This document shows, piece after piece, positions 1-18,094 of a stretch of 20,000 nt of DNA (positions are counted from its first letter, which is position 1; every line of letters starts with the position of its first letter). Origin of the DNA: an uncultured virus (IMG/VR IMGVR_UViG_3300042290_000472). Taxonomy: Duplodnaviria; Heunggongvirae; Uroviricota; Caudoviricetes. The notes under the pieces are model-generated. The model did not search any database. It had not been told where the DNA came from and saw only the letters and a list, made by a program, of their open reading frames with translations. The stretch is from IMG/VR virus record IMGVR_UViG_3300042290_000472; one strand, written 5' to 3'. The position numbers and the translations under genes were made by a program.

Positions 1-754
1 CGGACTCCGGGTTCTTGGCTTGGTAGTCGATCAAGCGCCCGGTCAGGTCCAGCTTGCCCCAGCGCGTCATCACAATGATGATCGCCCCGCCCGGCATCAG
101 TCGCTGGAGCGGGCCCGTCTGGAACCAAGACCACGCAGTGTCGAAAGCCAGCCGTGAGTTGGCCTTGACGTCCTGCTCCGAGTGAGGATCGTCAATAACG
201 AACAGATCAGCACCACGACCAGCAAGAGCGCCTCCTACGCCTGCGGCGTAGTATTGGCCCCCGGCTGAAGTGCTCCACTTGCCTGCCGCTTTCTGGTCAT
301 CGGCTACCAGCGTTCGGGGGAAAAGGCCATGGTAATCCTCGTCAGCGAGCAAATTTCGCACCCGTCGGCCGAAATCTTCCGACAAACCGGCTGTGTGGGT
401 GCCCATGATGATCTTCTTCTCGGGGAAATTACCCAAAAAGAAGGCCGGAAACAGGTAAGAGCTGAATTCGGACTTGCCCATACGCGGCGCGATGTTGATG
501 ATCACCCGTTTTTTGGTTCCGGCGATCACTTCCGAGAAGATTTTGGCCAGTTTTCTGTGGTGGGGGCCTATTTTGAAGCCCGGATACACCGCTTTGGCGA
601 ACTCGATCATGTCCGACCGGGACAAGTTCTTCTGCTTGTGGGCCTGCGCCTTGTCCAGCAGCTCCAACGCCTCCAGCTTCTCGGCCGCTGTCAGCTTGCC
701 AAGGTTTTTGAACAGCGCTTGCGCTTGCTCAGGCGTCAGTGTGGCTGTTGTCAT
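1..754 (-). CDS. terL: Phage terminase large subunit, N-terminal ATPase domain (partial, runs off the left edge)
   Basis: Manual translation of the minus strand from ATG 754: MTTATLTPEQAQALFKNLGK...KRVIINIAPRMGKSEFSSYLFPAFFLG...YAAGVGGALAGRGADLFVIDDPHSEQD...AIIIVMTRWGKLDLTGRL. Contains Walker A-like PRMGKS, Walker B VIDDP and coupling motif MTRW. Absent from the supplied ORF track because there is no stop codon in the window. Confidence 0.95.
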   Translation of the reverse strand, partial: MTTATLTPEQAQALFKNLGKLTAAEKLEALELLDKAQAHKQKNLSRSDMIEFAKAVYPGFKIGPHHRKLAKIFSEVIAGTKKRVIINIAPRMGKSEFSSYLFPAFFLGNFPEKKIIMGTHTAGLSEDFGRRVRNLLADEDYHGLFPRTLVADDQKAAGKWSTSAGGQYYAAGVGGALAGRGADLFVIDDPHSEQDVKANSRLAFDTAWSWFQTGPLQRLMPGGAIIIVMTRWGKLDLTGRLIDYQAKNPES

Positions 755-1672: not shown

Positions 1673-1695
1673 CTGGGGAGAACGGTTCTCCCCAG
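1673..1695. repeat. 23-bp palindrome, copy 1
   Basis: CTGGGGAGAAC-G-GTTCTCCCCAG, 25 nt upstream of the ATG at 1721. Confidence 0.97.
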
Positions 1696-1720
1696 TCATC
1701 AACCTTTAGGAGAATGCAAC

Positions 1721-2616: not shown

Positions 2617-2683
2617 GGAAACTCTCTCAGCCTTGCGTGCAGGGCTGAGGGGGCAATCCTGCCCGTTAACTGGAGTATCAACC

Positions 2684-2863
2684 ATGAGCAATCGCTACAC
2701 AATCAAGACCCTGAACCTCAACCAACTGCGCGAACTGCGAGGCGAGCTGCGCCGTGATGCCGAGGCCAGCGCACGTAAGCGCAAGATGGTCGAGCAGGCC
2801 CGCACACGTGACAACGCGTGGACTGAACTCAAAGGCACTACTCGCCCTCTGCGTATTAAGTAA
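2684..2863 (+). CDS. Small basic hypothetical protein (59 aa)
   Basis: GGAG RBS, ATG 2684; MSNRYTIKTLNLNQLRELRG... Confidence 0.7.
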   Translation: MSNRYTIKTLNLNQLRELRGELRRDAEASARKRKMVEQARTRDNAWTELKGTTRPLRIK

Positions 2864-2869
2864 AACAAA

Positions 2870-2892
2870 CTGGGGAGAACGGTTCTCCCCAG
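2870..2892. repeat. 23-bp palindrome, copy 3
   Basis: Identical core, 6 nt after the stop at 2863. Confidence 0.97.
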
Positions 2893-2924
2893 TAACACGT
2901 TGTGGAAAACCCCCTAAAAAGGCA

Positions 2925-3145
2925 TACCCACCACGTCCCAGCGTTTACACCCCCAGTGCAGCGCATCTGGGCGTCCGCCAAGCCAATGTTTATGCGGTGT
3001 CCAGCGTACACCCACCTAAGCACCTATATATAAATATAAGATTTTCTCTAGATATATATATATACGTGTGCAAGTGGGTATACTTTCGTGCGTTTGTTTG
3101 GTTTGGTTAAAGCTCTTCCAAAATGCTGGGTATCGTGGGCTGGAT
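2925..3145. other. Non-coding AT-rich core with flanking imperfect repeats (candidate replication origin)
   Basis: (TA)n-rich tract 3025-3064 in otherwise GC-rich sequence, with imperfect inverted repeats on both sides. Confidence 0.4.
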
Positions 3146-3256
3146 ACCAAAGAAATGGCGTAACCACGGGGCTTCAAGCCATCCCCACCACCACGTCATC
3201 GCCCGAGAATCAGGGGGTATAATGTCCACGGGTTACACACAATCATGGAGTTTCCA

Positions 3257-3985
3257 ATGGAACACAGCGACAATTTTCACCTTGCACCTGCCCGTGCGCA
3301 CGATGGCAAGGCCCTCAAAGCAGCGGCGTTCTGCCCTGACTGTCAGACGGTCAAGCCCTTGCCCGAGTTCAAACGCTACCTCACAGGCGGGGAGCTTGCG
3401 GCCCAAGGCTACACCTCTGGCGCAAAGGTCGAGATCGAGACGGCCAAGTGCCGATCATGCAGGCCCAAGCGCAAGCCTGTGCAGAAGCTGAACACCGCTG
3501 AGCTGAAGAACCGTGCGGCCAACGGGGACATCAAACCCTACGTGGCGCAGCAGATCATGCAGGAACGCAAGAAGCGGGGGCTTGCTGCGCAGCGTGCGGG
3601 GGCCATCAAGTCCTATCTGTCCAAGGTCAAGGCCAAGTGGACGCCCATCTTGGCCGGGTTCCAAGCCGAGGCTGTGCCCGTGCGCCACCAGCTCAAGTAC
3701 GAACGCGCCCGAAACCCGGACAGCCCGTTGATGGCCTTCCTCACCGCGTACCAAACGATGCTGCAAGAGACCGCATCCCTGCTCAAGTTCCATCACATAC
3801 GCTTGAAGCCTTCGATGCCCGAGAAGGACCGACCGGACTGGCAGCAGCACGTGCCCAAGCCCCAGCGTGCGAAGCTGGAGGCCCTATGGAACGCCGTACC
3901 CATTGAGAAGCGGGTGAAGGTGCGTATGCCTGCGCTGTTCACCTACCGCATAGCGGAAGACCGGGAACATTCATCAACCTGCTGA
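3257..3985 (+). CDS. Basic hypothetical protein with an N-terminal CxxC...CxxC zinc ribbon
   Basis: CPDCQTVKPLPEF...KCRSCR; GGAG before ATG 3257 (alternative start 3245); perfect TATAAT at 3218-3223 upstream. Confidence 0.75.
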   Translation: MEHSDNFHLAPARAHDGKALKAAAFCPDCQTVKPLPEFKRYLTGGELAAQGYTSGAKVEIETAKCRSCRPKRKPVQKLNTAELKNRAANGDIKPYVAQQIMQERKKRGLAAQRAGAIKSYLSKVKAKWTPILAGFQAEAVPVRHQLKYERARNPDSPLMAFLTAYQTMLQETASLLKFHHIRLKPSMPEKDRPDWQQHVPKPQRAKLEALWNAVPIEKRVKVRMPALFTYRIAEDREHSSTC

Positions 3986-3986
3986 A

Positions 3987-4009
3987 CTGGGGAGAACGGT
4001 TCTCCCCAG
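3987..4009. repeat. 23-bp palindrome, copy 4
   Basis: Identical core, 1 nt after the stop at 3985, followed by TTTTTCTTTCT. Confidence 0.97.
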
Positions 4010-4026
4010 TTTTTCTTTCTGAATCC

Positions 4027-4045
4027 GTGAGACACCCTGTCTCAC
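4027..4045. promoter_or_regulatory. GTGAGAC-N5-GTCTCAC dyad, copy 1
   Basis: GTGAGAC-ACCCT-GTCTCAC, intergenic. Confidence 0.75.
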
Positions 4046-4092
4046 AAACCGCCGCCAGTCGGCCACTGGCAAACAACCTATGGAGAAGCAAC

Positions 4093-4530
4093 ATGAACCT
4101 CAACGATATGCCCATCACAATGGACGAACCCCAACAGCCAGCCCACGCTGTGCACCACACGCTCATCGACGCGCTGCTCAGCCAGTTCACCGCGCACATC
4201 GACATGCTGGTGGAGACCAAGTTCCACGCCATGCTGGCCAACCGCAACGCGCTCAAGCTCATGGACGAGGAGATGCACAAACAGATCGAGGCCATGATCG
4301 AGAACCGCATGCTCGACCACGAGGGCAGCAGCGATCACTTGGACGAAGCAAACGTGGAGCAGCTCGCCGCTGACACCGCACGTGAGACGCTGAAAGAGTA
4401 CGCCAGCACGCAAGAGGGCTGGGTCACCAAGGACCAAGTGCAGGACATCATCACCGAGCAGATGGACGAAGAGCTCGACAACATTGACTGGGACGAGAAG
4501 GTCAAAGACGCTATCCGTAACCTGTTGTGA
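4093..4530 (+). CDS. Acidic helical hypothetical protein (145 aa)
   Basis: GGAGAAGCAAC-ATG start; D/E-rich C-terminal half. Confidence 0.8.
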   Translation: MNLNDMPITMDEPQQPAHAVHHTLIDALLSQFTAHIDMLVETKFHAMLANRNALKLMDEEMHKQIEAMIENRMLDHEGSSDHLDEANVEQLAADTARETLKEYASTQEGWVTKDQVQDIITEQMDEELDNIDWDEKVKDAIRNLL

Positions 4531-4540
4531 GGAGATGGCC

Positions 4541-4696
4541 ATGCACCACGAGCTGGACAAGACCATCGAGTCAATTGAAAAGATCATGCGCCTCATGTGG
4601 GACATGCTGCCTGAGAAAGATCAGGCGCTGCTCGCACATGCGTATGCCTTCGCGCTGATCCGGCGCATCGCCAACAAAGGAATGGAGAGATCATGA
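4541..4696 (+). CDS. Small hypothetical protein (51 aa)
   Basis: GAGGAG RBS; stop overlaps the next ATG (ATGA). Confidence 0.65.
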   Translation: MHHELDKTIESIEKIMRLMWDMLPEKDQALLAHAYAFALIRRIANKGMERS

Positions 4697-4830
4697 AACG
4701 ATACACCGGGCCAGCAAAGCCCATCCCCACAAACGTGAGACAGCCCGTCTCACGCTACATCACGTGCGCCATCTACGTGGCGTGCATTGTCGTCCTCTTG
4801 TTGGACTTGTTTTATTGGAGAGCAGGATGA
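4693..4830 (+). CDS. Small single-pass membrane protein (45 aa)
   Basis: Manual translation MKRYTGPAKPIPTNVRQPVSRYITCAIYVACIVVLLLDLFYWRAG; GGAG RBS; ATGA overlaps at both ends. Confidence 0.65.
   Translation: MKRYTGPAKPIPTNVRQPVSRYITCAIYVACIVVLLLDLFYWRAG
4735..4753. promoter_or_regulatory. GTGAGAC-N5-GTCTCAC dyad, copy 2 (inside a small ORF)
   Basis: GTGAGAC-AGCCC-GTCTCAC. Confidence 0.7.
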
Positions 4831-5138
4831 AAACATCTGAACTGACAAGACACGCCCTTGATTGGGCGGTGCATCAAGCACGGTTTGAAGGGGCTTGCCA
4901 TGACGAGCCGTTCCCCAGTTACTCAACCGACTGGAAACATGGTGGGCCGATCGTTGAGCGTGAGAAGTTGTTCGTGAAGCCTACCATCAGCAAAGGGTGG
5001 AGAAGCTATCAGCGTGATCCGTTCGGCAACGGCATCTGCCATTCACAGTACGGCCCCACACCCCTGATCGCCGCTATGCGGTGCTACGTTGCATCCAAGC
5101 TGGGTGACGACATCAACATTCCCGAGGAGTTGAAATGA
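4827..5138 (+). CDS. DUF2591 / NinX-like phage protein
   Basis: Motifs LDWAV, YSTDWKHGGPIVERE and GPTPLIAAMRCYVASKLGD are characteristic of this family. Confidence 0.8.
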   Translation: MKTSELTRHALDWAVHQARFEGACHDEPFPSYSTDWKHGGPIVEREKLFVKPTISKGWRSYQRDPFGNGICHSQYGPTPLIAAMRCYVASKLGDDINIPEELK

Positions 5139-5437
5139 AAAGACCTAGCTTGTGGGCACTGCCCGCGCACATGAAAGCCGCACAACCCATGGCGCTGCCG
5201 ACCAAGACCATCACGATGATTGACTACGACGCAGTGCGCGAGCACTTGCAGGCGCACGGCTTCATGGTGCTGCACGTACCGGTGGAGGAGCTGCGCACCA
5301 ACAAGTGTGGTGCGGACGAGGCCCCGGATATCAAGTGCATCATCAGCGCAGCGGCCATGCGCAAGTGGCCGAAGCTCAACACGTACCGCATCGACGCCAC
5401 GCGCTGGCTTATCAAACTACAAGGAGAAAGCAAATGA
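5135..5437 (+). CDS. Hypothetical protein (100 aa)
   Basis: GAGGAG RBS; ATGA coupling to both neighbours. Confidence 0.7.
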   Translation: MKRPSLWALPAHMKAAQPMALPTKTITMIDYDAVREHLQAHGFMVLHVPVEELRTNKCGADEAPDIKCIISAAAMRKWPKLNTYRIDATRWLIKLQGESK

Positions 5438-5625
5438 ACGAAGGACAAGAGCACGAATGGCACATCGAGCTGGACTACATGCTGGCAAAGGTGCGCCACG
5501 CTGTGCAGATTCTCAATGAGAGCAACTTAAAAACACTGAGTGACGGCTACGCCATCAAAGAACTGGAGCCTGTGTTGTTCAGGCTTCAGGAGTTGTGCAA
5601 TTTAACCAAAGGAGAAAGCAAATGA
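5434..5625 (+). CDS. Hypothetical protein (63 aa)
   Basis: AAGGAGAAAGCAA-ATG start. Confidence 0.7.
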   Translation: MNEGQEHEWHIELDYMLAKVRHAVQILNESNLKTLSDGYAIKELEPVLFRLQELCNLTKGESK

Positions 5626-5894
5626 GATTCAAGATTAGATTCGGTAACGCTGAGCTGTTGCTCACAGCAGAGCAGCTCGACGCCATGGTGGCCCTTGCTG
5701 AGCAGGCAGAGACCATCGAGGAGAACTACGTGGGCAGACAAAGCGGGTACGTAGGCCACGATAACAACTACGAGTTGCGCTTCGCGCTGTTCGATACGCA
5801 GCGCAGCGCCGCAGTGCAGGTCGTGTCAACCAAGGAGCTGGACAAGTGGCACACACTCAACGCATACCGTCAACAAAAGGAGAACGAGCAATGA
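5622..5894 (+). CDS. Hypothetical protein (90 aa)
   Basis: Same AAGGAGAAAGCAA-ATG start context; MRFKIRFGNAELLLTAEQL... Confidence 0.7.
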   Translation: MRFKIRFGNAELLLTAEQLDAMVALAEQAETIEENYVGRQSGYVGHDNNYELRFALFDTQRSAAVQVVSTKELDKWHTLNAYRQQKENEQ

Positions 5895-6058
5895 AAGCGT
5901 ACACAGTACACATCCAAGCAGTCGAGTTCTACACCATCGAGGTGCAGGCCGAAGACAAAGAGCAAGCCGAGGAAAAAGCATGGCGCTTGTTCCCACACCA
6001 CAGCGCCAACTACGGCGAGAACAACGTGACTGAAATTGAGGAGCACTCAAATGACTGA
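5891..6058 (+). CDS. Small acidic protein, DpnD/PcfM-like pattern
   Basis: MKAYTVHIQAVEFYTIEVQAEDKEQAEEKA matches the 'Y.V.I......veVeAes.eeA.ekA' pattern of small phage proteins. Confidence 0.6.
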   Translation: MKAYTVHIQAVEFYTIEVQAEDKEQAEEKAWRLFPHHSANYGENNVTEIEEHSND

Positions 6059-6737
6059 AGAAACCGAAACAGAACAGACCGAGTTCAGCTACCAAGAACT
6101 CAGCCAACGCGCCAAGGACAAGGCGTTGCAGTGGTTCAGCGAATCGCTGGACCACGAGTGGTGGGACGGTGTGTACGAGAACGCCAAAGCAGACGGGCCT
6201 GAACGTGGCTTCGAGATTGACGACATACGCTTCTCAGGCTTCTGGTCACAAGGTGATGGCGCATCGTGGACAGGCAGCGTGCGCATCAAAGAGTTCCTTG
6301 ACTACCACCTCAAGGAAGATCACCCCGACTTCGGCCGCTACTTCATACTGCAAGCCATCCTCAACGAGGGGTACGACTGGGTCGAGCGCTACACCAACGT
6401 CAACCGCAGTGGCTTCCACTACGTGCACGACAACATGATGCGCCTTGAGAGCATCAGCTACAGTAACCTCGAATGCCTCGACGAGGACGATGAAGAGCGC
6501 TTGCAAGAGGAAGGCCCGCTGCAACGTGCGAACATCTACCAACTGTACAAGGGCGCAGACATCGACCACCTGATCGACGACCTTGAGACGTGGATACTCG
6601 AAGAGGCGCAGGCCTACGCACGCCAGATATACGACGACCTTGAGTCCGAGCACGAGCACCTCACCAGTGAGGAGTCACTGATCGAAGCCGCCGAAGCCAA
6701 CGGCTGGATGTTCGACGAGGATGGAGCGCTTGTATGA
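6051..6737 (+). CDS. Highly acidic protein of the family commonly annotated 'antitoxin of toxin-antitoxin stability system' in mobile elements
   Basis: Motifs ELSQRAKDKALQW, FSGFWSQGDGASW and YDDLESEHEHLTSEE...EANGWMFDEDG; about 56 of 228 residues are D/E by manual count. Confidence 0.7.
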   Translation: MTEETETEQTEFSYQELSQRAKDKALQWFSESLDHEWWDGVYENAKADGPERGFEIDDIRFSGFWSQGDGASWTGSVRIKEFLDYHLKEDHPDFGRYFILQAILNEGYDWVERYTNVNRSGFHYVHDNMMRLESISYSNLECLDEDDEERLQEEGPLQRANIYQLYKGADIDHLIDDLETWILEEAQAYARQIYDDLESEHEHLTSEESLIEAAEANGWMFDEDGALV

Positions 6738-7009
6738 CACCGGACGAGTGGGTCTTGGTCGCGCCGACCATCTTGACGGTAGCGGGTCTGGAGTTCACTG
6801 TACACAACCACGGCGAACACATCATCGTGTACAACATAGACCGGCACGGCCGCAGGCACGAGTACCACCTGTGGCCCACCACAGGTACGTGGCGACACAA
6901 ACCCCCGGGAAACGAATGGGGTACTGGGACCAACCACACCCATATCAGGAAAAAGTTCGGCGGTGTGCGCGGTCTCGTGCGCTACATACAAGAAGTTCTT
7001 ACCGAGTAA
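6734..7009 (+). CDS. Hypothetical protein (91 aa)
   Basis: GGAG RBS, ATGA overlap with the upstream gene. Confidence 0.65.
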   Translation: MTPDEWVLVAPTILTVAGLEFTVHNHGEHIIVYNIDRHGRRHEYHLWPTTGTWRHKPPGNEWGTGTNHTHIRKKFGGVRGLVRYIQEVLTE

Positions 7010-7015
7010 TCAACC

Positions 7016-7034
7016 GTGAGACATGTCGTCTCAC
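7016..7034. promoter_or_regulatory. GTGAGAC-N5-GTCTCAC dyad, copy 3
   Basis: GTGAGAC-ATGTC-GTCTCAC, in the gap between the stop at 7009 and the RBS of the gene at 7056. Confidence 0.75.
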
Positions 7035-7055
7035 ACAACACTAGGAGAAGCAACC

Positions 7056-8021
7056 ATGTTTTCATCATCCATACACACGCTGCCCAACGTCACCACGTGG
7101 GAGTCAGCGCACAACACGTTCAACAACACGCCGCGCCCAAAAGGCCCACGCAGCACACAGAAGTGGAACGACAACCAACGCCCGCTCAAGGACAACCGCT
7201 CGTGGCACTACCGCATCGAGCGCATCAACGGGGGCGAGCACTACGACGTGTGCCTGCACCACACAGTGATGGCACGCTACTACAAACCAACAGCAGACGG
7301 GCGGCGCGTGCTGTACACCGGGCACCCCTCCAACATGAGCAAACAGTTCATGCGCCACGTGCTCAATGTGCGCCATCAAAACACGTGGATGACGACGGAC
7401 GGGCGCACTGTGGCAGTGCCTATCGCCAACAGAGACAGCATCCCAGACAAAGGCTCCTCGTTCAGCGCTGACCTGTGGCTGGTTAAGCATGAGGTGCTCT
7501 ACGGCCTGCGCCTCGACGTGGCCAAGTCATCGCACACAACACACTACGTCAAGCGCATGAGCCCCGACGACAGAGCCACGCACAAGCGGGCACGGGCCAA
7601 CATGGAGAACCTCATTACGCTGGCCTGCATGCGCATACCCGAATTTCTTGGGCGTGTGTATCTCGACTACGACTTGCTCGAACCGTTCCAAGGGGTTGAC
7701 GTAGGTTATGCCGAGCGTGCCGCGTTAGATTCGCTTGCATCAGGACAGTTCGCCGCACTCAAGCCGGAGTCACAAGAAAGGCACATCGCTGAGTTCATGC
7801 GACTGGCCGAGGATGTGTTCGACTACGAGGCGGTCAAGGTGGCGGAGCGATACCCCAACGACTCCATACTGGAACACGTTACAGAGAAGGTTCTGGCTGA
7901 CGCGTTGTGGAGAATAGCCAAGCGAGAGTGCAGCGTCCTCAAGCGCAAGTCCGACGCTATCCAACTGGCCCCGTTCATGGACGTGAAAGACTTCCCCAAC
8001 ACAGCCACGCCCTACCCCTGA
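7056..8021 (+). CDS. Hypothetical phage protein (321 aa)
   Basis: AGGAGAAGCAACC-ATG start; long ORF with no recognisable motif. Confidence 0.8.
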   Translation: MFSSSIHTLPNVTTWESAHNTFNNTPRPKGPRSTQKWNDNQRPLKDNRSWHYRIERINGGEHYDVCLHHTVMARYYKPTADGRRVLYTGHPSNMSKQFMRHVLNVRHQNTWMTTDGRTVAVPIANRDSIPDKGSSFSADLWLVKHEVLYGLRLDVAKSSHTTHYVKRMSPDDRATHKRARANMENLITLACMRIPEFLGRVYLDYDLLEPFQGVDVGYAERAALDSLASGQFAALKPESQERHIAEFMRLAEDVFDYEAVKVAERYPNDSILEHVTEKVLADALWRIAKRECSVLKRKSDAIQLAPFMDVKDFPNTATPYP

Positions 8022-8067
8022 CGTGTCAGGGAGAGAAGGAACATTCATCAATCTTTTTGCAAAGGAG

Positions 8068-8097
8068 TTGTCAAACAATGGACAAATGAGATACAAT
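8068..8097 (+). promoter_or_regulatory. Sigma70-type promoter for the AAA/vWA operon
   Basis: TTGTCA (8068-8073), 18-nt spacer, TACAAT (8092-8097), in an AT-rich intergenic gap. Confidence 0.65.
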
Positions 8098-8105
8098 ATC
8101 AAAAA

Positions 8106-8128
8106 CTGGGGAGAACGGTTCTCCCCAG
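8106..8128. repeat. 23-bp palindrome, copy 5
   Basis: Identical core, immediately downstream of the predicted transcription start. Confidence 0.97.
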
Positions 8129-8169
8129 TAACCTCTCAATTTTTCTTTCATCACTAGGAGTTCTTAATC

Positions 8170-9294
8170 ATGAACAAAATGCTTTCTTTCACTCAAGTCC
8201 TCAACCTCATCGCCGCTGTTGGCGACAAGCGCACCGTCATCGTCGAGGGCGAGAACGGCATAGGCAAGACCGCGCTGTTCCACGCGCTCAAGAAGCACCC
8301 CAAGTTCGCTGGCCACATCGCAGTTGACCCTGTCGATTGCACACAGCTCTCCGATGGTTCTGTGTGGATGCCTGACCTCGACCGCGAGAACGGCGTGTCA
8401 CGTGAGTTGCCAAACGAGCGCTTCGGTGTATCGCGCACCAATCAGATGGGTGTCAACGATGCCAAGCCAATCATGGTGTTCCTCGACGAGATCGCCAAGG
8501 CTCCGCAGTTCATCAAGAACGTGCTGGCCCCGATCATCTACGAGCGCCGCGTTGGCAACTACCACATGCCCGAGGGTAGCGTGGTGTTCTGTGCAACCAA
8601 CTTGGCTGTTGAGGGTCTTGGCGATAGCATTCAGGCGCACCTGCGCAACCGTCTCGTGTTCGTCAAGATGCGCAAGCCTACCGCTGGCGAGTGGGTGCAG
8701 TGGGCCATCGACAAGGGCGTCAACGCTTCGGTGATTGCATTCGTCAACAGCTACGCTCAGGTCATGGACTCGTTCCTCGACTACGAGAAGGGCGGCAAGC
8801 ACGAGGGCAAGGATCAGTCCAAGGACAACGGCTACATCTTCAATCCTCGCTCGATGGCACTGGCATATGCTACGCCGCGCAGCTTGGTTGCAGCGGGTGA
8901 CGTGCTCGATGCTGGTGACGGTGTGCTCGACGATGACACGCTTGAGGCTGCGTTGATCGGTACGCTGGGTGCCACGACTGCTGAGGCGCTGTCTTCATTC
9001 GTACGCTTTGGCCGTGACATCTGCTCACTCGAACGTGTGCTCAAAGACCCTGCGACTGCGCCGCTGGCCGACAACCCCACTGCGCAGCTTGTGCAGGTGT
9101 TCCAGTTCGTCTCACGCGTTGACAAGCGCGACGATGCGGCCAAGGTTGTTGAGTACGTGCTGCGCATGCGCACAGAGATGCAGTCGATCTTCTGCAACAG
9201 CGTGGCCAACTCGTCCAACATTGCGCACTATGTGTCGTTGACGAACTTCGGTTCGCTCTTGGCATCGCACAAGATTTTCTTCAGCACGAAGTAA
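8170..9294 (+). CDS. MoxR-like AAA+ ATPase
   Basis: Walker A GENGIGKT, Walker B VFLDE, sensor-1 ATN, arginine finger LRNR, sensor-2-like TPRS. Confidence 0.9.
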   Translation: MNKMLSFTQVLNLIAAVGDKRTVIVEGENGIGKTALFHALKKHPKFAGHIAVDPVDCTQLSDGSVWMPDLDRENGVSRELPNERFGVSRTNQMGVNDAKPIMVFLDEIAKAPQFIKNVLAPIIYERRVGNYHMPEGSVVFCATNLAVEGLGDSIQAHLRNRLVFVKMRKPTAGEWVQWAIDKGVNASVIAFVNSYAQVMDSFLDYEKGGKHEGKDQSKDNGYIFNPRSMALAYATPRSLVAAGDVLDAGDGVLDDDTLEAALIGTLGATTAEALSSFVRFGRDICSLERVLKDPATAPLADNPTAQLVQVFQFVSRVDKRDDAAKVVEYVLRMRTEMQSIFCNSVANSSNIAHYVSLTNFGSLLASHKIFFSTK

Positions 9295-9297
9295 GTC

Positions 9298-9624
9298 ATG
9301 AGCACAGTACGCGCAATGAACAAGTACGACTATGTGGATGTGGACATAGACGTCAGCAAGCTGCTGCGTACCCCGAAAGGGGCGCTGCGGCTCGACGCTA
9401 AAGCGGCGTACAAGGAGGGGTGGGCAATGCTCTCCGTGTACGGCTTCTGGCACCCCACGGTGTTGGCCGGAAGGCACGGCATCGCGCAGCGCACCATCTT
9501 GCACCGCATGTTCGTGCCGCGTGACACGCCCAAGGCGGAGAAGCACCGCATGCTGCGAACCATGTGCGATCTGTTTGCTGTGAAGCACGGCACTGAGTAC
9601 GCACTGAGGAGCAAGCTGAAATGA
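9298..9624 (+). CDS. Hypothetical basic protein
   Basis: Fills the operon gap; ATGA overlap with the next gene; start uncertain (9298 or 9316). Confidence 0.6.
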   Translation: MSTVRAMNKYDYVDVDIDVSKLLRTPKGALRLDAKAAYKEGWAMLSVYGFWHPTVLAGRHGIAQRTILHRMFVPRDTPKAEKHRMLRTMCDLFAVKHGTEYALRSKLK

Positions 9625-9974
9625 CAGCACGTTACGACAAGTCGCAGAACATCAACCTGTTTTGCCGTAACGCTGACGGCGAGATCGTGATCGTGTCCAA
9701 GGTGTGGCTGACCGCATCGAAGGGCAAGGCAGCTGTCTCGCTGTATGCAGGGCGCGGCATCAAGGACAAGGCCCTGCGCCTTGTTCACCGTGAGTTCTTC
9801 GACAAGGCCACGCACACCAAGGACATGGTGATCGCAGCACGTGACACCGTCGCGTTCTTGTGGGCCATGCACTTCGGTGTGTCTGACTTTGTCGTGATCC
9901 ACCACGAACCAAAGATGTCGGAGCTTTACCATCCGACCGAACTGAACCTTAAACAACAGGAGAAGCAACCATGA
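9621..9974 (+). CDS. Hypothetical protein (117 aa)
   Basis: GAGGAG upstream; ATGA overlaps at both ends. Confidence 0.65.
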   Translation: MTARYDKSQNINLFCRNADGEIVIVSKVWLTASKGKAAVSLYAGRGIKDKALRLVHREFFDKATHTKDMVIAARDTVAFLWAMHFGVSDFVVIHHEPKMSELYHPTELNLKQQEKQP

Positions 9975-11155
9975 GCTTTGACAAACTTACCCCCAACCAG
10001 AAAATCCAAGCGTGCAACATCGACGTGATGCGTCACCACAAGTTCGCGCTGCTGTCCGGCATCGTGTGCATGGGCAAGTCCGAGGCATGTGATGACATGC
10101 CCACTGCTGCAACCAACGGCAAGGACAAGCTGTACGGCACAGCGTTCATCAGTGACCTGACACGCAAGGAGCTGCGCTTCGTTGTGCTGCACGAGAACTT
10201 CCACGTGGCGCTCAAGCACTGCGTCTTGCCAGCGTACATTGGGTACAGCAAGCGCTTCGGTCCGCAGATCAACAACGCGGCCATGGACTACGTGGTCAAC
10301 GGCCTGATCGACGAGCTTGACCCTGAGCGCAAGTTCATGGATTTCCCCGCCAAGATCAAGATTCTGTTCGACGAGAAGTTCAAGGGCATGTCGTACCCGC
10401 AGGTGCTGCAAGAGTTGCTCAAGGATGCCGACGAACAGCCGCAGGCCATGGACGACCACCAGATGAACGGCGAGGGTGGTGGTGACCCCATGACACCCGA
10501 GGAGTCCGAGAAGCTGGGCAAGATGGTCGACGATGCCAACCGCCAAGGCGAGTTGCTTGTGCGCAAGATGCGTGGCGATAAAGAGGGTGGCCGTGACATC
10601 CTTGGCACAGCGCAGGAGCGCGTGACCAACTGGCGTGATGCGTTGCAGGACTTCATCAGTTCTGTGTGCGTTGGCGACGAGAACTCACGCTTTTGCCCAC
10701 CCAACAAGCGCTTGCTTGCGTCCGGCTTCATCATGCCTTCGCACTTCGACGAGAACATTGGCGAGATCGTCATTGCGTGCGACACGTCAGGCTCCATGCA
10801 CTGGGCGTACCCTGTTGTGTTCGGTGAAGTGGCGCGTATCGTGCAGAACACACGACCAGACAGCGTGCGCATGTTGTGGTGGGACACGGAGGTGTGCGGC
10901 GATCAGGTGTTCAAGCCCGAGCAGTACCAAGACATTGCCACGCAGCTTGCACCCAAGGGCGGTGGCGGCACCGTTGTGTCGTGTGTTGCTGACTACGTGG
11001 CCGAGCACAAGATCAAGGCCAAGGCTGTCATCATGCTGACCGATGGCTACATCGAGTCCGACTACCGCATGACCGACATGCCGACCTTGTGGGGTGTCGT
11101 GGACAACGAAGACTTCATGCCACGCGCAGGCAAGGTGTTGAGGATTCGTCCATGA
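9971..11155 (+). CDS. DUF2201-type putative metallopeptidase with a vWA domain
   Basis: N-terminal TAATNG and HENFH (HExxH); C-terminal MIDAS elements DTSGS, GGGGT and LTDG. Confidence 0.9.
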   Translation: MSFDKLTPNQKIQACNIDVMRHHKFALLSGIVCMGKSEACDDMPTAATNGKDKLYGTAFISDLTRKELRFVVLHENFHVALKHCVLPAYIGYSKRFGPQINNAAMDYVVNGLIDELDPERKFMDFPAKIKILFDEKFKGMSYPQVLQELLKDADEQPQAMDDHQMNGEGGGDPMTPEESEKLGKMVDDANRQGELLVRKMRGDKEGGRDILGTAQERVTNWRDALQDFISSVCVGDENSRFCPPNKRLLASGFIMPSHFDENIGEIVIACDTSGSMHWAYPVVFGEVARIVQNTRPDSVRMLWWDTEVCGDQVFKPEQYQDIATQLAPKGGGGTVVSCVADYVAEHKIKAKAVIMLTDGYIESDYRMTDMPTLWGVVDNEDFMPRAGKVLRIRP

Positions 11156-11379
11156 GCGAGCCCGAGCTGGTCAAGTGGAGACTGTTCAAGCCCCCCACGG
11201 AGGACATGTTTGACTTCCGGGTCAGGCGTCAGCACTTCGGGACACCTTACATGTACGCAGTGGAGGCCAAGTGCCGTAGCAGCGGCACCACGTACGTGCT
11301 GGCTGCGTTCACCACCAGCGCACCTCTCACCAACGCGCTGCGTGATACGTGCATCAACCTTGTGAGGTGTGCAGCATGA
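11152..11379 (+). CDS. Hypothetical protein (75 aa)
   Basis: GAGGA RBS, ATGA coupling. Confidence 0.6.
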   Translation: MSEPELVKWRLFKPPTEDMFDFRVRRQHFGTPYMYAVEAKCRSSGTTYVLAAFTTSAPLTNALRDTCINLVRCAA

Positions 11380-11633
11380 GCAAAGGCATTGACTTCGACT
11401 TCCGCCCGAGGGGGCAGTACCGACGAGGGGAGCGCCCCCTTTTTGTCAGGCCCCCGTTCAACCAATCAGGGCAGATCATCTACGGCACCTACTCGGAGCC
11501 GGGCTTTAGCCCACCAGTCGTGGCATTCATGCACGACTTCTACGCAGTCAGCGCTGACGAGCAACGGCAGATGGTGCAGAGCACCATACTGCTTTGCGAA
11601 ATGATGTACCAACAACAGGAGAACCAACCATGA
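11376..11633 (+). CDS. Hypothetical protein (85 aa)
   Basis: GAGG RBS, ATGA coupling. Confidence 0.6.
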   Translation: MSKGIDFDFRPRGQYRRGERPLFVRPPFNQSGQIIYGTYSEPGFSPPVVAFMHDFYAVSADEQRQMVQSTILLCEMMYQQQENQP

Positions 11634-11860
11634 ACCAACCGATACCCAACGCACTGGCCAACACGGTCTTGCTCGCAGATCACGACGAGGCAATACAACG
11701 CGCAGTCGTCGATGCAGTGGAGAAGATCGTTGTGAACTACTTGCAGGTCCACATGCACGAAGTCAGCACCAATATTGTCTCGTACCAACAAGCCCAAATT
11801 GAGCGCATCGCACTGCGCGCAGTCAAGCAACACTTCACCAACGCATCCAACATTTACTAA
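11630..11860 (+). CDS. Hypothetical protein (76 aa)
   Basis: AGGAGAACCAACC-ATG start. Confidence 0.7.
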   Translation: MNQPIPNALANTVLLADHDEAIQRAVVDAVEKIVVNYLQVHMHEVSTNIVSYQQAQIERIALRAVKQHFTNASNIY

Positions 11861-11872
11861 GGAGAACCAACC

Positions 11873-12751
11873 ATGAACACAACTCGCTACAACATCGACA
11901 CCTGCGCCATGCTCACCGAATTCAACGCCAGCGTGTGGACCGCACGCAAGCTGGACAGGGGCGCAACAGACGAGATCGTCACATCCAAGAACGCTGCGGC
12001 CAAGGATGCAGCACGCGTCAACAAGCACCTGCTTGCAGGGCGCACAGAGCTGGAGGTTATTCAACAGATGATCGGCCGTGCTCGCACCTACGTGTACGAC
12101 CACACGCTGCCATGGTCTGACTCGGGCCTGCGCTTGCTGCCTACTGCCAACTTCGAGCGCTTCGCTACCAAGATGAACGACTTCGAGGACGAGTTCGCAA
12201 TGATGGTCGAGTCGTTCGTCAACATCTACCCCACGCTCATTACAGCGCAGGCCATGGCCTTGGGTGATATGTTTCAGCGCAACGACTTCCCCTCACAGAA
12301 CGAGATCATGACCAAGTTTGCCTTCCGTGTGAACTACCTGCCCGTGCCTACGGCGGGTGACTTCCGTGTGGATGTGGGCAACGCTGCGATGGACGACATC
12401 AAGGCCAAGCTCGAACGTGTGGCACAAGAGCGTGTGGACGCGGCCATGCAGGACGTGCGCCAGCGTATCGGTGACCACCTCAAGCGCATGTCGGACCGCC
12501 TCACTACCGACTACGTGCAGGGTGAAGCCAAGCCTCGCAGGTTCCACGACAGCCTTGTCGATGGTGCCTTGGAGCTGTGCGACTTGACCAAGACGCTCAA
12601 CGTGGTCAATGATCTGGACCTCGAAGCCGCACGCAGCGCGTTGGAGAAGGCACTGTGCGGTATCGCACCCACCGACCTGCGCAAAGATGAAGCGCTGCGC
12701 CAAGACACCAAGAAAGCCGTCGATGACATCCTCAACAAATTCTCCTTTTAA
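11873..12751 (+). CDS. DUF3150-like helical phage protein
   Basis: Motifs SVWTARKLD, VNKHLL, TLPWSDSGLRLLP and FPSQNEIMTKFAF are typical of this family; strong RBS. Confidence 0.7.
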   Translation: MNTTRYNIDTCAMLTEFNASVWTARKLDRGATDEIVTSKNAAAKDAARVNKHLLAGRTELEVIQQMIGRARTYVYDHTLPWSDSGLRLLPTANFERFATKMNDFEDEFAMMVESFVNIYPTLITAQAMALGDMFQRNDFPSQNEIMTKFAFRVNYLPVPTAGDFRVDVGNAAMDDIKAKLERVAQERVDAAMQDVRQRIGDHLKRMSDRLTTDYVQGEAKPRRFHDSLVDGALELCDLTKTLNVVNDLDLEAARSALEKALCGIAPTDLRKDEALRQDTKKAVDDILNKFSF

Positions 12752-15076: not shown

Positions 15077-15316
15077 ATGACACAGACAACAGCCGACACC
15101 GTGCAGATCGGCGGCACGCACTACAAAGACATGGGCATGCAGCCTTGGCATGTCATGGAGGCGGTACTCACGCCCGAAGAATTCAAAGGTTTCCTCAAAG
15201 GGAACATCATCAAATACGCCATGCGTCAGGGCAAGAAAGAAGGCACTGACGACGGCAACAAAGCCCAGCACTACAAGATGAAGCTGGACGAAATTTGTAG
15301 CAAACACGAGAGCTGA
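15077..15316 (+). CDS. DUF3310 protein (T7 gp1.7 / SaV-like nucleotide kinase domain)
   Basis: QIGGTHYK...QPW...GFLKGNIIKYAMRQGKKEGTDDGNKAQHY. Confidence 0.88.
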   Translation: MTQTTADTVQIGGTHYKDMGMQPWHVMEAVLTPEEFKGFLKGNIIKYAMRQGKKEGTDDGNKAQHYKMKLDEICSKHES

Positions 15317-15345
15317 GTTCATGGTTGCACAACGCGTACAAGCCC

Positions 15346-15449
15346 GGTAGATGCAAGTACGCTTTGTCGGTGAGAGGGCGCTCAGCTCGCGTTACCCAGC
15401 TCACCAACTCCTCACAGCGGCGGGGGCGCTGAATCTACCCGTACCCCCG
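15346..15449 (+). ncRNA. Candidate structured RNA with a pseudoknot
   Basis: Nested complementary segments GGTAGAT/ATCTACC, GGTGAG/CTCACC and CAGCG/CGCTG, plus loop CGGGGG complementary to downstream CCCCCG, in an intergenic gap. Confidence 0.5.
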
Positions 15450-15481
15450 ATCTTTTACCAACACATCACGGAGAAGCAACC

Positions 15482-15787
15482 ATGGCATCAACGCCAGAAG
15501 CACTGGTCAAAAAGAAGATCAGAAAAATACTTGACGCCGAGGGCGTCTACTACGCCATGCCTATCGGCACAGGCTACGGCAACAGCGGCGTGCCCGACTT
15601 CCTGTGCTGCGTTGCAGGCAGGTTTGTGGCCATCGAGGCCAAGGCAGGCAAAGGCACAACCACCGCGCTGCAAGAAGACCACCTAGCCAGAATCACGGAG
15701 TCTCGCGGCGTGGCAATGGTCATCAACGAGCAGAACCTCTACACGCTGGAGCCGTTGATTCACTTCATACGGGGGCGCGATGAATAA
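15482..15787 (+). CDS. VRR-NUC domain nuclease
   Basis: TPEALVKK...GVPDFLCC...FVAIEAKAGKGTTTALQ: PD-(D/E)xK VRR-NUC signature. Confidence 0.9.
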   Translation: MASTPEALVKKKIRKILDAEGVYYAMPIGTGYGNSGVPDFLCCVAGRFVAIEAKAGKGTTTALQEDHLARITESRGVAMVINEQNLYTLEPLIHFIRGRDE

Positions 15788-16067
15788 AGACATTGCAAAC
15801 AAAGCGGTGGAGGCCATCACGAAGGCCGCGCAGGACATGACCACGCAACAGAAGGAACACTTCGCCAGCGTGCTGACGTTGCTGGCAACGTGTTATGGAA
15901 AAGATGCGACGTTCGGCGGCGTGTTGATCCTGTCTGACGGCGCAAAGAGTGTCCTTGTCGGCATCAACGCCAACGAGTTTGAAGTGGCGGGCCTTATCAG
16001 CGAAGCCCACGAACTTATCGTCAACGAAATCAAAGTAGAGGCTCCCGACCACGGGATGTACAACTGA
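15780..16067 (+). CDS. Hypothetical protein (95 aa)
   Basis: Overlaps the VRR-NUC stop; its stop overlaps the polymerase start (TGATG). Confidence 0.7.
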   Translation: MNKDIANKAVEAITKAAQDMTTQQKEHFASVLTLLATCYGKDATFGGVLILSDGAKSVLVGINANEFEVAGLISEAHELIVNEIKVEAPDHGMYN

Positions 16068-18094
16068 TGGCAAAACCATACGACACGATCATCGCAATCG
16101 ACTTCGAGACGCGCTGGGACAAAGAAAGTTTCACGCTCTCCAAAATGACAACAGAGGAATATATTCGTGACCCACGTTTTAAAGCATTCGGCGCTTGCGC
16201 CAAAGAGTTCGGAGCAACAGGCAAAGCGCCTTGGATCAGGCACGACGACTTGCAAGACTACTTCAACAGCATCGACTGGAGCCGCACAGCCGTGCTCGCA
16301 CACAACGCGCAGTTCGATGTCTCGATCATGGAGTGGGTCTACGGCGCACGCCCGTGTTTTATCTTTGACAGCCTCTCTATGGCTCGGGCCTTGCGCGGGG
16401 TCGAAGTAGGCAACTCGTTGCAGAAGCTGGCCAGTGACTTCGGCCTGCCCGACAAAGGCAAAGCGGTGCACAGCACCAACGGCATGGAAGAGCTGGACCC
16501 GAAGACTGAGCAGGAGCTGGCCGCGTACTGTGCGCATGATGTGTATTTGTGCGAGCAGGTGTTCAGCAAGCTGATGATGCGCCTTGACCCTGCGACGGGG
16601 ATGTCCAACGGGCTGTACCCCACCAAGGAGCTGCGCCTGATCGACATGACGCTCAAGATGTACACGCGCCCGGTGCTGGAGCTGGACCAGAGCATGCTCA
16701 CTGACGCGTTGTACGATGAAAAGGAAAAACGTGAAGCACTCCTACAAAAGATCGGTGTTGACGAATCTTCACTTGCGTCAAACAAACAGTTCGCTGAAGT
16801 CCTGCGCGGACTCGGCATGCCCCCGCCCTACAAGAAGAGCAAGACGACTGGCAAACAGACGCTTGCTCTTGCAAAGAATGACGCGCTTTTTCAAGCGATG
16901 CTCAACGGGGACAACGAAGACGTTGCCGCTTTGTGTGAGGCTCGCCTCAAAGTTAAATCGACCACTGAGCGTACGCGGGCGCAGCGGTTTCTGGACATCT
17001 CGAAGCGCGGAAGACTACCTGTTCCGCTCTCGTACTACGGTGCCAAGTCCGGGCGCTGGACGGCCAGCAAAGGCAGCGCCATCAACATGCAGAACCTCAA
17101 GCGAGGATCGTTCTTGCGCAAAGCTATTATGGCTCCCGAAGCGCACCAACTGGTCGTCGGTGATCTGTCACAGATTGAACCGCGAGTTCTTGCGTGGCTG
17201 GCTGATTACGAGGACATGCTACTCATCTTCCGGCAGGGCGGTGATCCTTACGCGGCGTTCGGCGCTCAGATGTTCAACATACCGGGCCTTACAAAAGAGT
17301 CACACCCTGATCTCCGCCAGTCGGCAAAGTCCGCGCTTCTGGGCTGTGGTTACGGACTGGGCTGGGCTTCATTTGCCGCCCAGCTACTCGTGGGTTTCCT
17401 CGGTGCGCCGCCTCAACGCTACAACAAAGACTTTGCAAAGAAGCTCGGCGTTACCACGACGTACATACAGAAGTTTCTTGAGTGGGACGACAACGTCAAG
17501 AAGATGATGGAGATTCCGCGCACCTGCACAGACGACGAACTGCTGGTGCACTGCATAGCGGCCAAGATGATCATCGACAAGTACCGCGCCACGGCGTGGC
17601 CTGTGGTGGCGTTCTGGGATATGTGCGGGTCGTTGATCGAGCGCTCACTTTACGGCGGCAACGAGTTCACGTATAAATGCGTCATCTTCCGCAAAGAAGA
17701 AATCGTTTTGCCCAACGGCATGAGCCTGCTGTACCCCAACCTGAGACAAGTCAGGGAGAAGGTCAAGGACGAGGACGGCAACGAGAAGGAAGGCGGCTTG
17801 CAGTGGGTGTACGGCGATGACGCAACGAAGCTGTATGCTGGTAAGATAACGAACAACATTGTGCAGGGCGTAGCCCGCATTGTGATGACTGATGGCATGC
17901 TGCGCGTCGACAAGAAGTACCCTGTGAAGGGCACCGTGCACGACGAGCTGATTGCTGTGGTGCCGGACGATGAAGTTGATTTCGCTAAGACTTGGGTCTT
18001 GGCGCAAATGACTATGGAGCCAAAGTATTTGCCGGGGATTCCTCTGGCCGCTGACGGTGGCGCACACCGTCGATATGGGTTGGCCAAAAACTGA
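16067..18094 (+). CDS. Phage DNA polymerase, family A (3'-5' exonuclease plus polymerase)
   Basis: ExoI DFET, ExoII AHNAQFD, ExoIII YCAHD; motif A GDLSQIEPR, motif B RQSAKSALLGCGYG, motif C TVHDE. Confidence 0.96.
   Translation: MAKPYDTIIAIDFETRWDKESFTLSKMTTEEYIRDPRFKAFGACAKEFGATGKAPWIRHDDLQDYFNSIDWSRTAVLAHNAQFDVSIMEWVYGARPCFIFDSLSMARALRGVEVGNSLQKLASDFGLPDKGKAVHSTNGMEELDPKTEQELAAYCAHDVYLCEQVFSKLMMRLDPATGMSNGLYPTKELRLIDMTLKMYTRPVLELDQSMLTDALYDEKEKREALLQKIGVDESSLASNKQFAEVLRGLGMPPPYKKSKTTGKQTLALAKNDALFQAMLNGDNEDVAALCEARLKVKSTTERTRAQRFLDISKRGRLPVPLSYYGAKSGRWTASKGSAINMQNLKRGSFLRKAIMAPEAHQLVVGDLSQIEPRVLAWLADYEDMLLIFRQGGDPYAAFGAQMFNIPGLTKESHPDLRQSAKSALLGCGYGLGWASFAAQLLVGFLGAPPQRYNKDFAKKLGVTTTYIQKFLEWDDNVKKMMEIPRTCTDDELLVHCIAAKMIIDKYRATAWPVVAFWDMCGSLIERSLYGGNEFTYKCVIFRKEEIVLPNGMSLLYPNLRQVREKVKDEDGNEKEGGLQWVYGDDATKLYAGKITNNIVQGVARIVMTDGMLRVDKKYPVKGTVHDELIAVVPDDEVDFAKTWVLAQMTMEPKYLPGIPLAADGGAHRRYGLAKN

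What the first reader, a model, noticed from the sequence alone, without database searches (positions are those of the whole stretch)
15346..15449. Candidate pseudoknotted ncRNA upstream of the VRR-NUC / DNA polymerase operon
Seen: a 165-nt gap in an otherwise tightly packed region. P1 GGTAGAT (15346-52) / ATCTACC (15433-39) encloses a weak small TACG-loop hairpin, a long hairpin GGTGAG (15369-74) / CTCACC (15400-05) with inner GGG/CCC and CGC/GCG pairs, and a hairpin CAGCG (15415-19) / CGCTG (15427-31). The loop CGGGGG (15421-26) is perfectly complementary to CCCCCG (15444-49) just 3' of P1. I do not recognise it as a tRNA or a named riboswitch or ribozyme. Inference: a cis-regulatory or catalytic RNA between a nucleotide-metabolism gene and the replication genes.
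Basis: partly seen in the sequence, partly recalled or inferred. Interest (0 to 1): 0.7.

Follow-up and report, generated by a model that had tools for sequence, protein, structure and literature searches.

The report
New triple-pseudoknot phage RNA
A roughly 145-base stretch between two phage genes folds into an intricate, evolutionarily conserved RNA knot unlike any catalogued RNA family; it travels among freshwater phages and a few bacteria and may help the rest of its long gene string be expressed, or may be a new self-cutting RNA.

Summary
The element is real and larger than reported: 15310-15452 (+). Homologues (178 distinct copies, 90 below 80% identity) support six helices forming three interlocked H-type pseudoknots. 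Two missed 5' helices (P0, PK-A) replace the small TACG hairpin. Every helix covaries. There is no Rfam match and no conserved peptide.

The RNA lies on the coding strand just after a stop codon, one copy per genome, at varied gene junctions of ~65-kb phages, and between MerR and VIT-vWA genes in a few Burkholderiales. It shows no covarying Shine-Dalgarno pairing and is sometimes followed by a terminator plus promoter, so a riboswitch for the next gene is unlikely. It is kept in the phage clade whose replication genes lack a nearby promoter and mostly absent in the clade that has one (essentially one clade contrast).

Best guess (0.30): a protein-free, cis-acting antitermination/processivity RNA that works like HK022 put but has a different fold. 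Rivals: xrRNA-like decay barrier (0.20), new self-cleaving ribozyme (0.20), trans-acting decoy (0.15), riboswitch (0.07). Transcription and function are not shown.

The parts
15310..15452 (+). whole structured RNA: three interlocked H-type pseudoknots (PK-A/P2, P0/P1, P3/PK-B) plus a 3-nt tail
   Evidence: model R1 113.7 bits (the window was in its training set); median length 146 nt in 86 parsed copies
15310..15317 (+). PK-A 5' arm (contains the TGA stop of DUF3310); pairs with 15381-15388
   Evidence: cognate -15.4 vs swapped -8.4 kcal/mol, better than nearest-relative swap in 70 of 83
15318..15328 (+). linker L1a, about 10 nt, spans P2; weak CAT/GAT bias
15329..15339 (+). P0a 5' arm; pairs with 15357-15367
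   Evidence: double changes at all 11 P0a pairs on a sequence-only alignment; better than nearest-relative swap in 76 of 86
15342..15343 (+). P0b 5' side (2 bp with 15353-15354), closing the 9-nt loop that holds the P1 5' arm
   Evidence: C-G 94, G-C 1 of 96; G-U 44, G-C 38, A-U 4 of 96; G-C swap in 2 of 24
15346..15352 (+). P1 5' arm; pairs with 15433-15439
   Evidence: 98% of cells paired; double changes at 4 of 7 pairs
15353..15356 (+). P0b 3' side and the conserved purine pair of the internal loop
   Evidence: G 77%, A 84% in 71 copies
15357..15367 (+). P0a 3' arm
15369..15378 (+). P2 5' arm (core 15369-74), abuts P0a; pairs with 15396-15405
   Evidence: better than nearest-relative swap in 82 of 86; 6 of 6 pairs with double changes on a fitted alignment
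15381..15388 (+). PK-A 3' arm at the start of the P2 loop
15396..15405 (+). P2 3' arm
15406..15414 (+). J2/3, about 9 nt, pyrimidine-rich; ends in a conserved purine
   Evidence: TCC in 72 of 90; A 87%, G 11%
15415..15419 (+). P3 5' arm; pairs with 15427-15431
   Evidence: 5 bp in 92 of 98; top pair G-C in 96 of 96
15421..15426 (+). PK-B 5' arm (G-run in the P3 loop); pairs with 15444-15449
   Evidence: double changes at 5 of 6 pairs; 26 better, 4 worse, 56 ties against nearest-relative swap
15427..15443 (+). ring strand: P3 3' arm, single A (15432), P1 3' arm, linker
   Evidence: 15-16 nt in 93 of 98 copies, 17 nt in the window
15444..15449 (+). PK-B 3' arm
15450..15452 (+). 3' tail, family consensus A-C-Y (the window departs at position 2)
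   Evidence: A 91%, C 81%, C 69%/T 23% in 98 copies
15077..15316 (+). upstream gene, DUF3310 protein (79 aa)
   Evidence: PF11753 E 9e-16
15470..15473 (+). Shine-Dalgarno-like GGAG of the next gene
   Evidence: sequence
15482..15787 (+). downstream gene, VRR-NUC-like endonuclease (101 aa)
   Evidence: phrog_93 E 7e-11; tblastn hits annotated VRR-NUC; no Pfam hit
16067..18094 (+). family A DNA polymerase
   Evidence: PF00476, PF01612

Best explanation
A cis-acting, protein-free antitermination/processivity RNA. SHOWN (comparative): a ~145-nt six-helix fold with three interlocked pseudoknots, a conserved compact core (P0b/P1/P3/PK-B) and a dispensable 5' extension (PK-A, P2), on the coding strand just after a stop codon, one copy per genome. 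INFERRED: it folds on the nascent transcript where ribosomes leave the RNA. It then either binds host RNA polymerase (as HK022 put does) or blocks Rho from threading the transcript, so that transcription started far upstream reaches the replication genes without a promoter of their own. One copy anywhere upstream in the unit would suffice. Because only host machinery is needed, it also works when moved into a bacterial MerR/VIT-vWA operon.
For: Single copy at shifting junctions. In G531 and G529 it sits 2.1-2.4 kb upstream, beside the vWA gene, and the VRR-NUC gene has no gap and no second copy. One strong match in each of 10 of 12 near-complete records that I picked. Always on the strand of the flanking genes: 47 of 80 and 27 of 76 VRR-NUC loci have a match, all on +. 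A sigma70-like promoter lies between RNA and VRR-NUC in 5 of 35 RNA-positive loci, and within 1.2 kb upstream in 21 of 29 RNA-negative loci. On a polA tree one clade is 29 of 30 RNA-positive with no such promoter scored; the other has 4 of 29 RNA-positive and mostly has one. In several phages the RNA stands directly before an intrinsic terminator (L064, L568, L587, L594, L163/L284, L257), like lambdoid nutR/putR after cro (recalled). No Q-type antiterminator in 5 of 5 complete genomes. put acts over at least 10 kb, on intrinsic and Rho-dependent sites, without phage proteins (PMC9378689, passages). The RNA fills the MerR/VIT gap in five bacterial genomes, while 23 other such operons lack it and 11 of 24 have overlapping genes.
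Against: The promoter association is essentially one contrast between two clades plus scattered losses or gains; the tree is a quick, unfinished search with long branches. G535, an RNA-positive genome, has a promoter-like site 44 nt before VRR-NUC. In five RNA-positive genomes of the promoter-poor type, at most one weak intrinsic terminator was found in the scanned stretch downstream of the RNA (up to about 11 kb; shorter for G536 and G535), and most terminators lie upstream of it. In the unrelated phage G542 the RNA is about 1 kb from the end of its same-strand gene run. The fold shares nothing with put's two stem-loops. No transcription or polymerase-binding data.
Confidence: 0.3

Rival explanations
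1. An xrRNA-like mechanical knot. P1, P3 and PK-B form a ring around the strand 5' of P1 and stop 5'-to-3' acting machines (RNase E scanning, degradosome helicase). Decay of the upstream mRNA then leaves a protected 3' species: a stabilised replication mRNA, or a free ~200-nt RNA where a terminator follows.
For: Same connectivity as flaviviral xrRNA: the L3 loop pairs with the strand just 3' of P1 and stacks on P3 (PMC12081666, passages). The strand between the PK-B arms is 15-16 nt in 93 of 98 copies, and the xrRNA ring is 15-16 nt (PMC8374639, passages). Two more helices lock the 5' strand.
Against: In xrRNAs PK1 pairs the 5' end with bases between P3 and P1; here that junction is a single A and the 5' strand pairs with the P1-P2 strand instead. 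No RNase J over the family cut-off in 5 of 5 bacterial carriers. A local stabiliser would not be expected to move 2 kb away without leaving a copy. Threading is not shown.
Confidence: 0.2
2. A new class of self-cleaving ribozyme that splits the polycistronic early mRNA, giving the downstream part a 5'-OH end and doing the job of a terminator-plus-promoter module.
For: Multi-pseudoknot core with near-invariant unpaired C, U and A residues. A shortened natural copy (L290) lacks P2 and PK-A. It is indifferent to the neighbouring genes and has no expression platform. It alternates with terminator-plus-promoter at the same junction.
Against: No recalled catalytic core word of hammerhead, twister, pistol or hairpin is conserved (at most 10 of 90 copies). 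No known ribozyme replaces it in 20 RNA-negative loci. Always one copy. No read ends to show a cut.
Confidence: 0.2
3. A trans-acting RNA, trimmed out of the early mRNA, that binds a host protein, possibly by mimicking a tRNA acceptor arm (5+7 bp pseudoknotted stack followed by A-C-C), as in plant-virus tRNA-like ends (recalled).
For: One copy per genome in flexible places, including at the end of a transcript. P3+PK-B = 11-12 bp in 84 of 98 copies; tail ACC in 52 of 98.
Against: ACCA in only 10 of 98 copies, and the ACC control (22 of 518) was not matched for intergenic DNA. No conserved T-loop word (14 of 90 on +, 16 on -). It nearly always follows an upstream stop codon closely, which suggests it has no promoter of its own. 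A vWA partner is not required.
Confidence: 0.15
4. A riboswitch whose ligand stabilises PK-B and controls the next gene.
For: Compact conserved core 20-30 nt upstream of a Shine-Dalgarno sequence in 52 of 71 copies scored automatically.
Against: No covariation of J2/3 (p 0.10) or the PK-B 3' arm (p 0.93) with the downstream leader. Unrelated downstream genes. Copies followed by a new promoter.
Confidence: 0.07

Closest known systems
HK022 put RNA and Bacillales EAR RNA (RNA-based antiterminators)
   Same: Untranslated structured RNA inside an early operon; would act in cis on host transcription; put needs no phage protein.
   Different: put is ~70 nt, two stem-loops, near the promoter; this is ~145 nt with three pseudoknots, often more than 10 kb into the unit. 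No Rfam match. Activity untested.
Flaviviral class 1/2 xrRNA
   Same: P1 enclosing P2 and P3; the P3 loop pairs with the strand 3' of P1; ring strand of 15-16 nt.
   Different: The 5' strand pairs with the P1-P2 strand (P0), not with the P3-P1 junction; extra PK-A; found in DNA phages and bacteria that lack RNase J over the cut-off.
Small pseudoknotted self-cleaving ribozymes (HDV-like, twister, pistol, hatchet, glmS)
   Same: Multiple pseudoknots, compact conserved core, little regard for neighbouring genes.
   Different: Helix order fits none of them (topologies recalled); no Rfam score; recalled core words are absent.
Fremin et al. 2023 candidate structured RNAs from IMG/VR (PMC10690425)
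   Same: Same source collection; a fragment of this RNA could be among the 8,495 candidates.
   Different: Those average 67 nt. No VRR or VIT entry in the searchable within-25-bp table. Their alignments could not be searched, so overlap is not excluded.

Membership tests
Any Rfam 15 family | score at or near the family gathering threshold over the element | tested here: not met
   nothing on the element in the window at E<=5; in 20+20 homologue loci only weak hits far below gathering, on adjoining terminator hairpins or flanks
put/EAR antiterminators | two-stem put fold or EAR consensus | tested here: not met
   six helices with three pseudoknots; put described; no Rfam hit
put/EAR antiterminators | terminators downstream that need read-through | tested here: inconclusive
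   adjacent terminator in six loci; at most one weak intrinsic site downstream in five other genomes; Rho sites not testable
put/EAR antiterminators | binds RNA polymerase and suppresses termination | not testable with these tools
   needs in vitro transcription
flaviviral xrRNA | PK2 between L3 and the strand 3' of P1, ring of 15-16 nt | tested here: met
   definition
flaviviral xrRNA | PK1 between the 5' end and the P3-P1 junction | tested here: not met
   the junction is a single A in nearly all copies
flaviviral xrRNA | base triple between a 5' nucleotide and a P3 pair | tested here: inconclusive
   C 94% and U 90% lie 5' of P1 and P3's top pair is G-C, but too little variation to test
flaviviral xrRNA | halts a 5'-3' exoribonuclease | not testable with these tools
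   needs an Xrn1/RNase J1 assay
known self-cleaving ribozymes | conserved catalytic core words and helix order | tested here: not met
   recalled words in 0-10 of 90 copies; no Rfam hit
known self-cleaving ribozymes | site-specific self-cleavage | not testable with these tools
   only assembled contigs were available
riboswitches | expression platform that covaries with the aptamer | tested here: not met
riboswitches | functionally coherent downstream genes | tested here: not met
tRNA / tRNA-like structure | cloverleaf, T-loop, 3' NCCA | tested here: not met
   ARAGORN 0 genes; T-loop word 14 of 90; ACCA 10 of 98
small-peptide or recoding element | conserved open frame or frame-preserving length | tested here: not met
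   any one frame open in at most 13 of 90; lengths mod 3 = 36/28/26

The most novel reading that the evidence does not exclude
A new class of natural self-cleaving ribozyme with a core of three interlocked pseudoknots, carried by freshwater phages and moved horizontally into bacterial island operons, where it splits polycistronic mRNA in place of a terminator-plus-promoter module.
Probability: 0.2. Interest if true: 0.95.

Novelty: categorically new. Interest (0 to 1): 0.8.

Why it matters
Large, multi-pseudoknot RNAs with strong covariation are rare, and many such RNAs have proved to be ribozymes, riboswitches or machine-binding RNAs (own knowledge). This one has no catalogued relative, a ready alignment of about 180 copies, natural shortened variants and precise helix-breaking and rescue mutations. 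Each rival is therefore a short in vitro test. Any of the top three outcomes would be notable: a further RNA-only antiterminator fold, a bacterial counterpart of viral exonuclease-resistant knots, or a new ribozyme class. It might also be a portable part for synthetic operons. 'Categorically new' refers to the fold; the function may turn out to be of a known kind, and large unsearched candidate sets may already hold the sequence.

Tried and rejected
Single-sequence folding: not above shuffles. DNA similarity to annotated phages: only short chance-level pieces, none on the RNA. Expression: 3 of the 8 listed runs were laid, all contigs; X1 covers 27 of 30 bins at similar depth, which cannot show strand, ends or level. 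Anti-Shine-Dalgarno and other extra pairings (J2/3, L1a, L2 3' part, tail): none covary. Obligate vWA partner: rejected; G542 has the RNA without the DUF2201 gene, and G539 and G540 have the gene without the RNA. Known ribozymes replacing it at the junction: none in 20 loci. Slippery or readthrough frame: no conserved frame. T7-type RNA polymerase search: 0 of 5, but no control rang, so uninformative. G-U versus A-C count (268 vs 14) is biased by my helix scoring; strand rests on the G-Y pair. The PK-A mean was corrupted by an empty segment and was redone. Scripts stopped with errors after partial output. Earlier scan findings: none returned in five look-ups. Paper searches that showed no description of this RNA among the papers listed.

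Full report
Setting. The window is phage DNA; its own assembly is not held and the nearest record is G001. A long + strand run of genes includes an AAA ATPase, a DUF2201 vWA protein, DUF3310 (15077-15316), a VRR-NUC-like nuclease (15482-15787), a family A polymerase and a PD-(D/E)XK nuclease. Close relatives are uncultured ~65-kb phages. The host is not shown. Betaproteobacteria are inferred only because the same RNA occurs in Limnohabitans and Burkholderiales genomes.

Observation. The stated helices are at the stated places, but the sequence alone folds no better than shuffles. Rfam shows nothing on the element and ARAGORN finds no gene. Regions upstream of 80 VRR-NUC relatives showed diverged copies. 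A filter for P1, P3 and the 3' pseudoknot, after dropping 10 loci judged false by eye, left 178 distinct copies. These reduce to 90 below 80% identity, with median pairwise identity 0.48.

Anatomy. The order is PK-A 5', linker (~10 nt), P0 5', P1 5', P0 3', P2 5', PK-A 3', linker (~10 nt), P2 3', J2/3 (~9 nt), P3 5', PK-B 5', P3 3', one A, P1 3', PK-B 3', tail. This gives three H-type pseudoknots: PK-A/P2, P0/P1 and P3/PK-B. The loop strand of the third pairs into the hairpin loop of the second. Median lengths are PK-A 8, P0 10 and P2 11 bp, total 146 nt; P3 is 5 bp in 92 of 98 and PK-B 6-7 bp in 88 of 98. Natural variants lack PK-A (L230, L247, L328), lack both P2 and PK-A (L290), or rearrange the 5' part without a pseudoknot (L257). 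The core is therefore P0-P1-J2/3-P3-PK-B.

Covariation. On a sequence-only MAFFT alignment of 63 copies, P0, P1 and P3 gave 301 double-change cells against 116 in shuffles, 0 of 500 as high. Alignment-free swap tests on 86 of the 90 (4 short ones left out) gave cognate arms better than nearest-relative swaps in 76 (worse 7) for P0, 82 (2) for P2, 31 (1; 54 ties) for P3 and 26 (4; 56 ties) for PK-B, all with permutation p 0.0002. PK-A gave 70 (12) of 83, with 7 left out. My DNA patterns fixed most P1 letters, so their invariance is partly built in. Copies reached through the protein and the model add double changes at 4 of 7 P1 pairs and a swapped P0b pair. A G-Y pair (G-U 44, G-C 38, A-U 4 of 96) points to the + strand. 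R-scape was not available. No frame is conserved.

Distribution. Matches occur in 47 of 80 and 27 of 76 VRR-NUC loci (overlapping, redundant sets), always on the gene strand. In the second search no match fell between 55 bits and E = 1. Matches also occur in 54 of 80 metagenome loci. Near-complete records carry one copy: 10 of 12 that I chose; G542's second 14.6-bit hit is a short unstructured fragment. G539 and G540 lack the RNA and have a terminator and a promoter-like site at that junction. In bacteria it is rare: 4 of 18 pattern hits were real, and 1 of 151 and 2 of 127 genomes searched matched. All lie between a MerR-type HTH gene and a VIT-vWA gene; four more such cases are visible in the cut output, named by N-terminal likeness. 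Of 24 MerR loci from 401 genomes only the query's own has the RNA, and 11 have overlapping genes.

Context. The upstream stop codon lies within 12 nt of the PK-A start in 69 of 79 copies and inside the arm in 30; tight packing alone could cause this. Junctions vary: before VRR-NUC, before polA, before an exonuclease, either side of the vWA gene, and others. An automatic count of 71 copies gave 52 followed directly by a gene, 5 by a promoter, 4 by a terminator, 2 by both and 8 unclear. Three terminator calls (L092, L223, L255) look spurious. Clear terminator cases are L064, L163/L284, L257, L568, L587 and L594; a promoter-like site follows in L064, L257, L568, L587 and L594. No part of the RNA covaries with the downstream leader. 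Together these argue against a switch for the next gene.

Mechanism. A single copy that moves without leaving one behind fits a long-range cis function or a trans function. Near-constant placement right after a same-strand stop codon fits a co-transcriptional role. The promoter pattern (5 of 35 against 21 of 29) follows two polA clades, 29 of 30 against 4 of 29 RNA-positive (59 of 64 rows; quick tree). It suggests the RNA matters most where replication genes depend on distant promoters, but it has few independent events. I therefore rank an RNA-only antiterminator first (0.30). Against it are the scarcity of intrinsic terminators downstream, the promoter-like site in G535 and the late position in G542. 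The 3' half matches xrRNA connectivity and ring size but not its PK1, and carriers lack RNase J over the cut-off: 0.20. Self-cleavage fits the indifference to context but has no positive sign: 0.20. A trans decoy gets 0.15, a riboswitch 0.07, and other explanations 0.08. Transcription is unshown: the runs laid were contigs only.

Literature. Seen as passages: PMC8632103, PMC8374639, PMC12081666 and PMC9378689. Seen as passages plus partial supplements: PMC10690425; files 1, 2 and 4 and the largest files could not be searched. Seen as outline plus passages: preprints 10.64898/2026.09.22.753630 and 10.64898/2026.10.21.760802, whose supplements and database I could not see. None of the passages describes this RNA. 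Searches listed nothing on it; most subscription papers are outside the library. Recalled, from no call: nutR placement after cro, EAR's position between genes, ribozyme topologies and core words, plant-virus tRNA-like ends, RNase E scanning.

Verdict. A real, uncatalogued and unusually intricate structured RNA, larger than first reported, whose function is open but directly testable. Interest 0.8.

Noticed in passing
window 1673-1696, 2166-2190, 2869-2893, 3986-4010, 8105-8129: Five near-identical ~25-bp palindromes in gaps of the early region; likely operator sites, though one is followed by a T-run and scores as a terminator.
   Followed up: no
L066, L555, L584, L604 and related loci: Phages of the promoter-bearing clade carry a different short palindrome repeated in early gaps and just before the terminator-promoter module upstream of VRR-NUC.
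   Followed up: partly
window 2665-11878: A 19-23-nt leader with a Shine-Dalgarno sequence recurs before five or six early genes (families D2 and D3).
   Followed up: no
L343-L366: MerR-type HTH plus VIT-vWA two-gene operons in 22 of 401 genomes searched, three in G002, often with overlapping stop and start; beside a SNF2 helicase in L202 and a muramidase-like gene in L211. Function not examined.
   Followed up: partly
G542:C1:35055-35226 (L115): A phage without matches to the window's VRR-NUC, polA or vWA genes carries the RNA near the end of a gene run, which suggests transfer between phage groups.
   Followed up: partly
L290 and L257/L278: Natural variants: a shortened copy without P2 and PK-A, and a copy with a rearranged 5' part followed by two terminators; good constructs for testing.
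   Followed up: partly
window 3006-3083 (-): AT-rich hairpin giving weak microRNA-family scores far below gathering; in the non-coding early control region, probably chance.
   Followed up: no
window 2-754 (-): Open frame resembling a terminase large subunit (label recalled from its motifs, not scanned), transcribed away from the + strand early unit.
   Followed up: no
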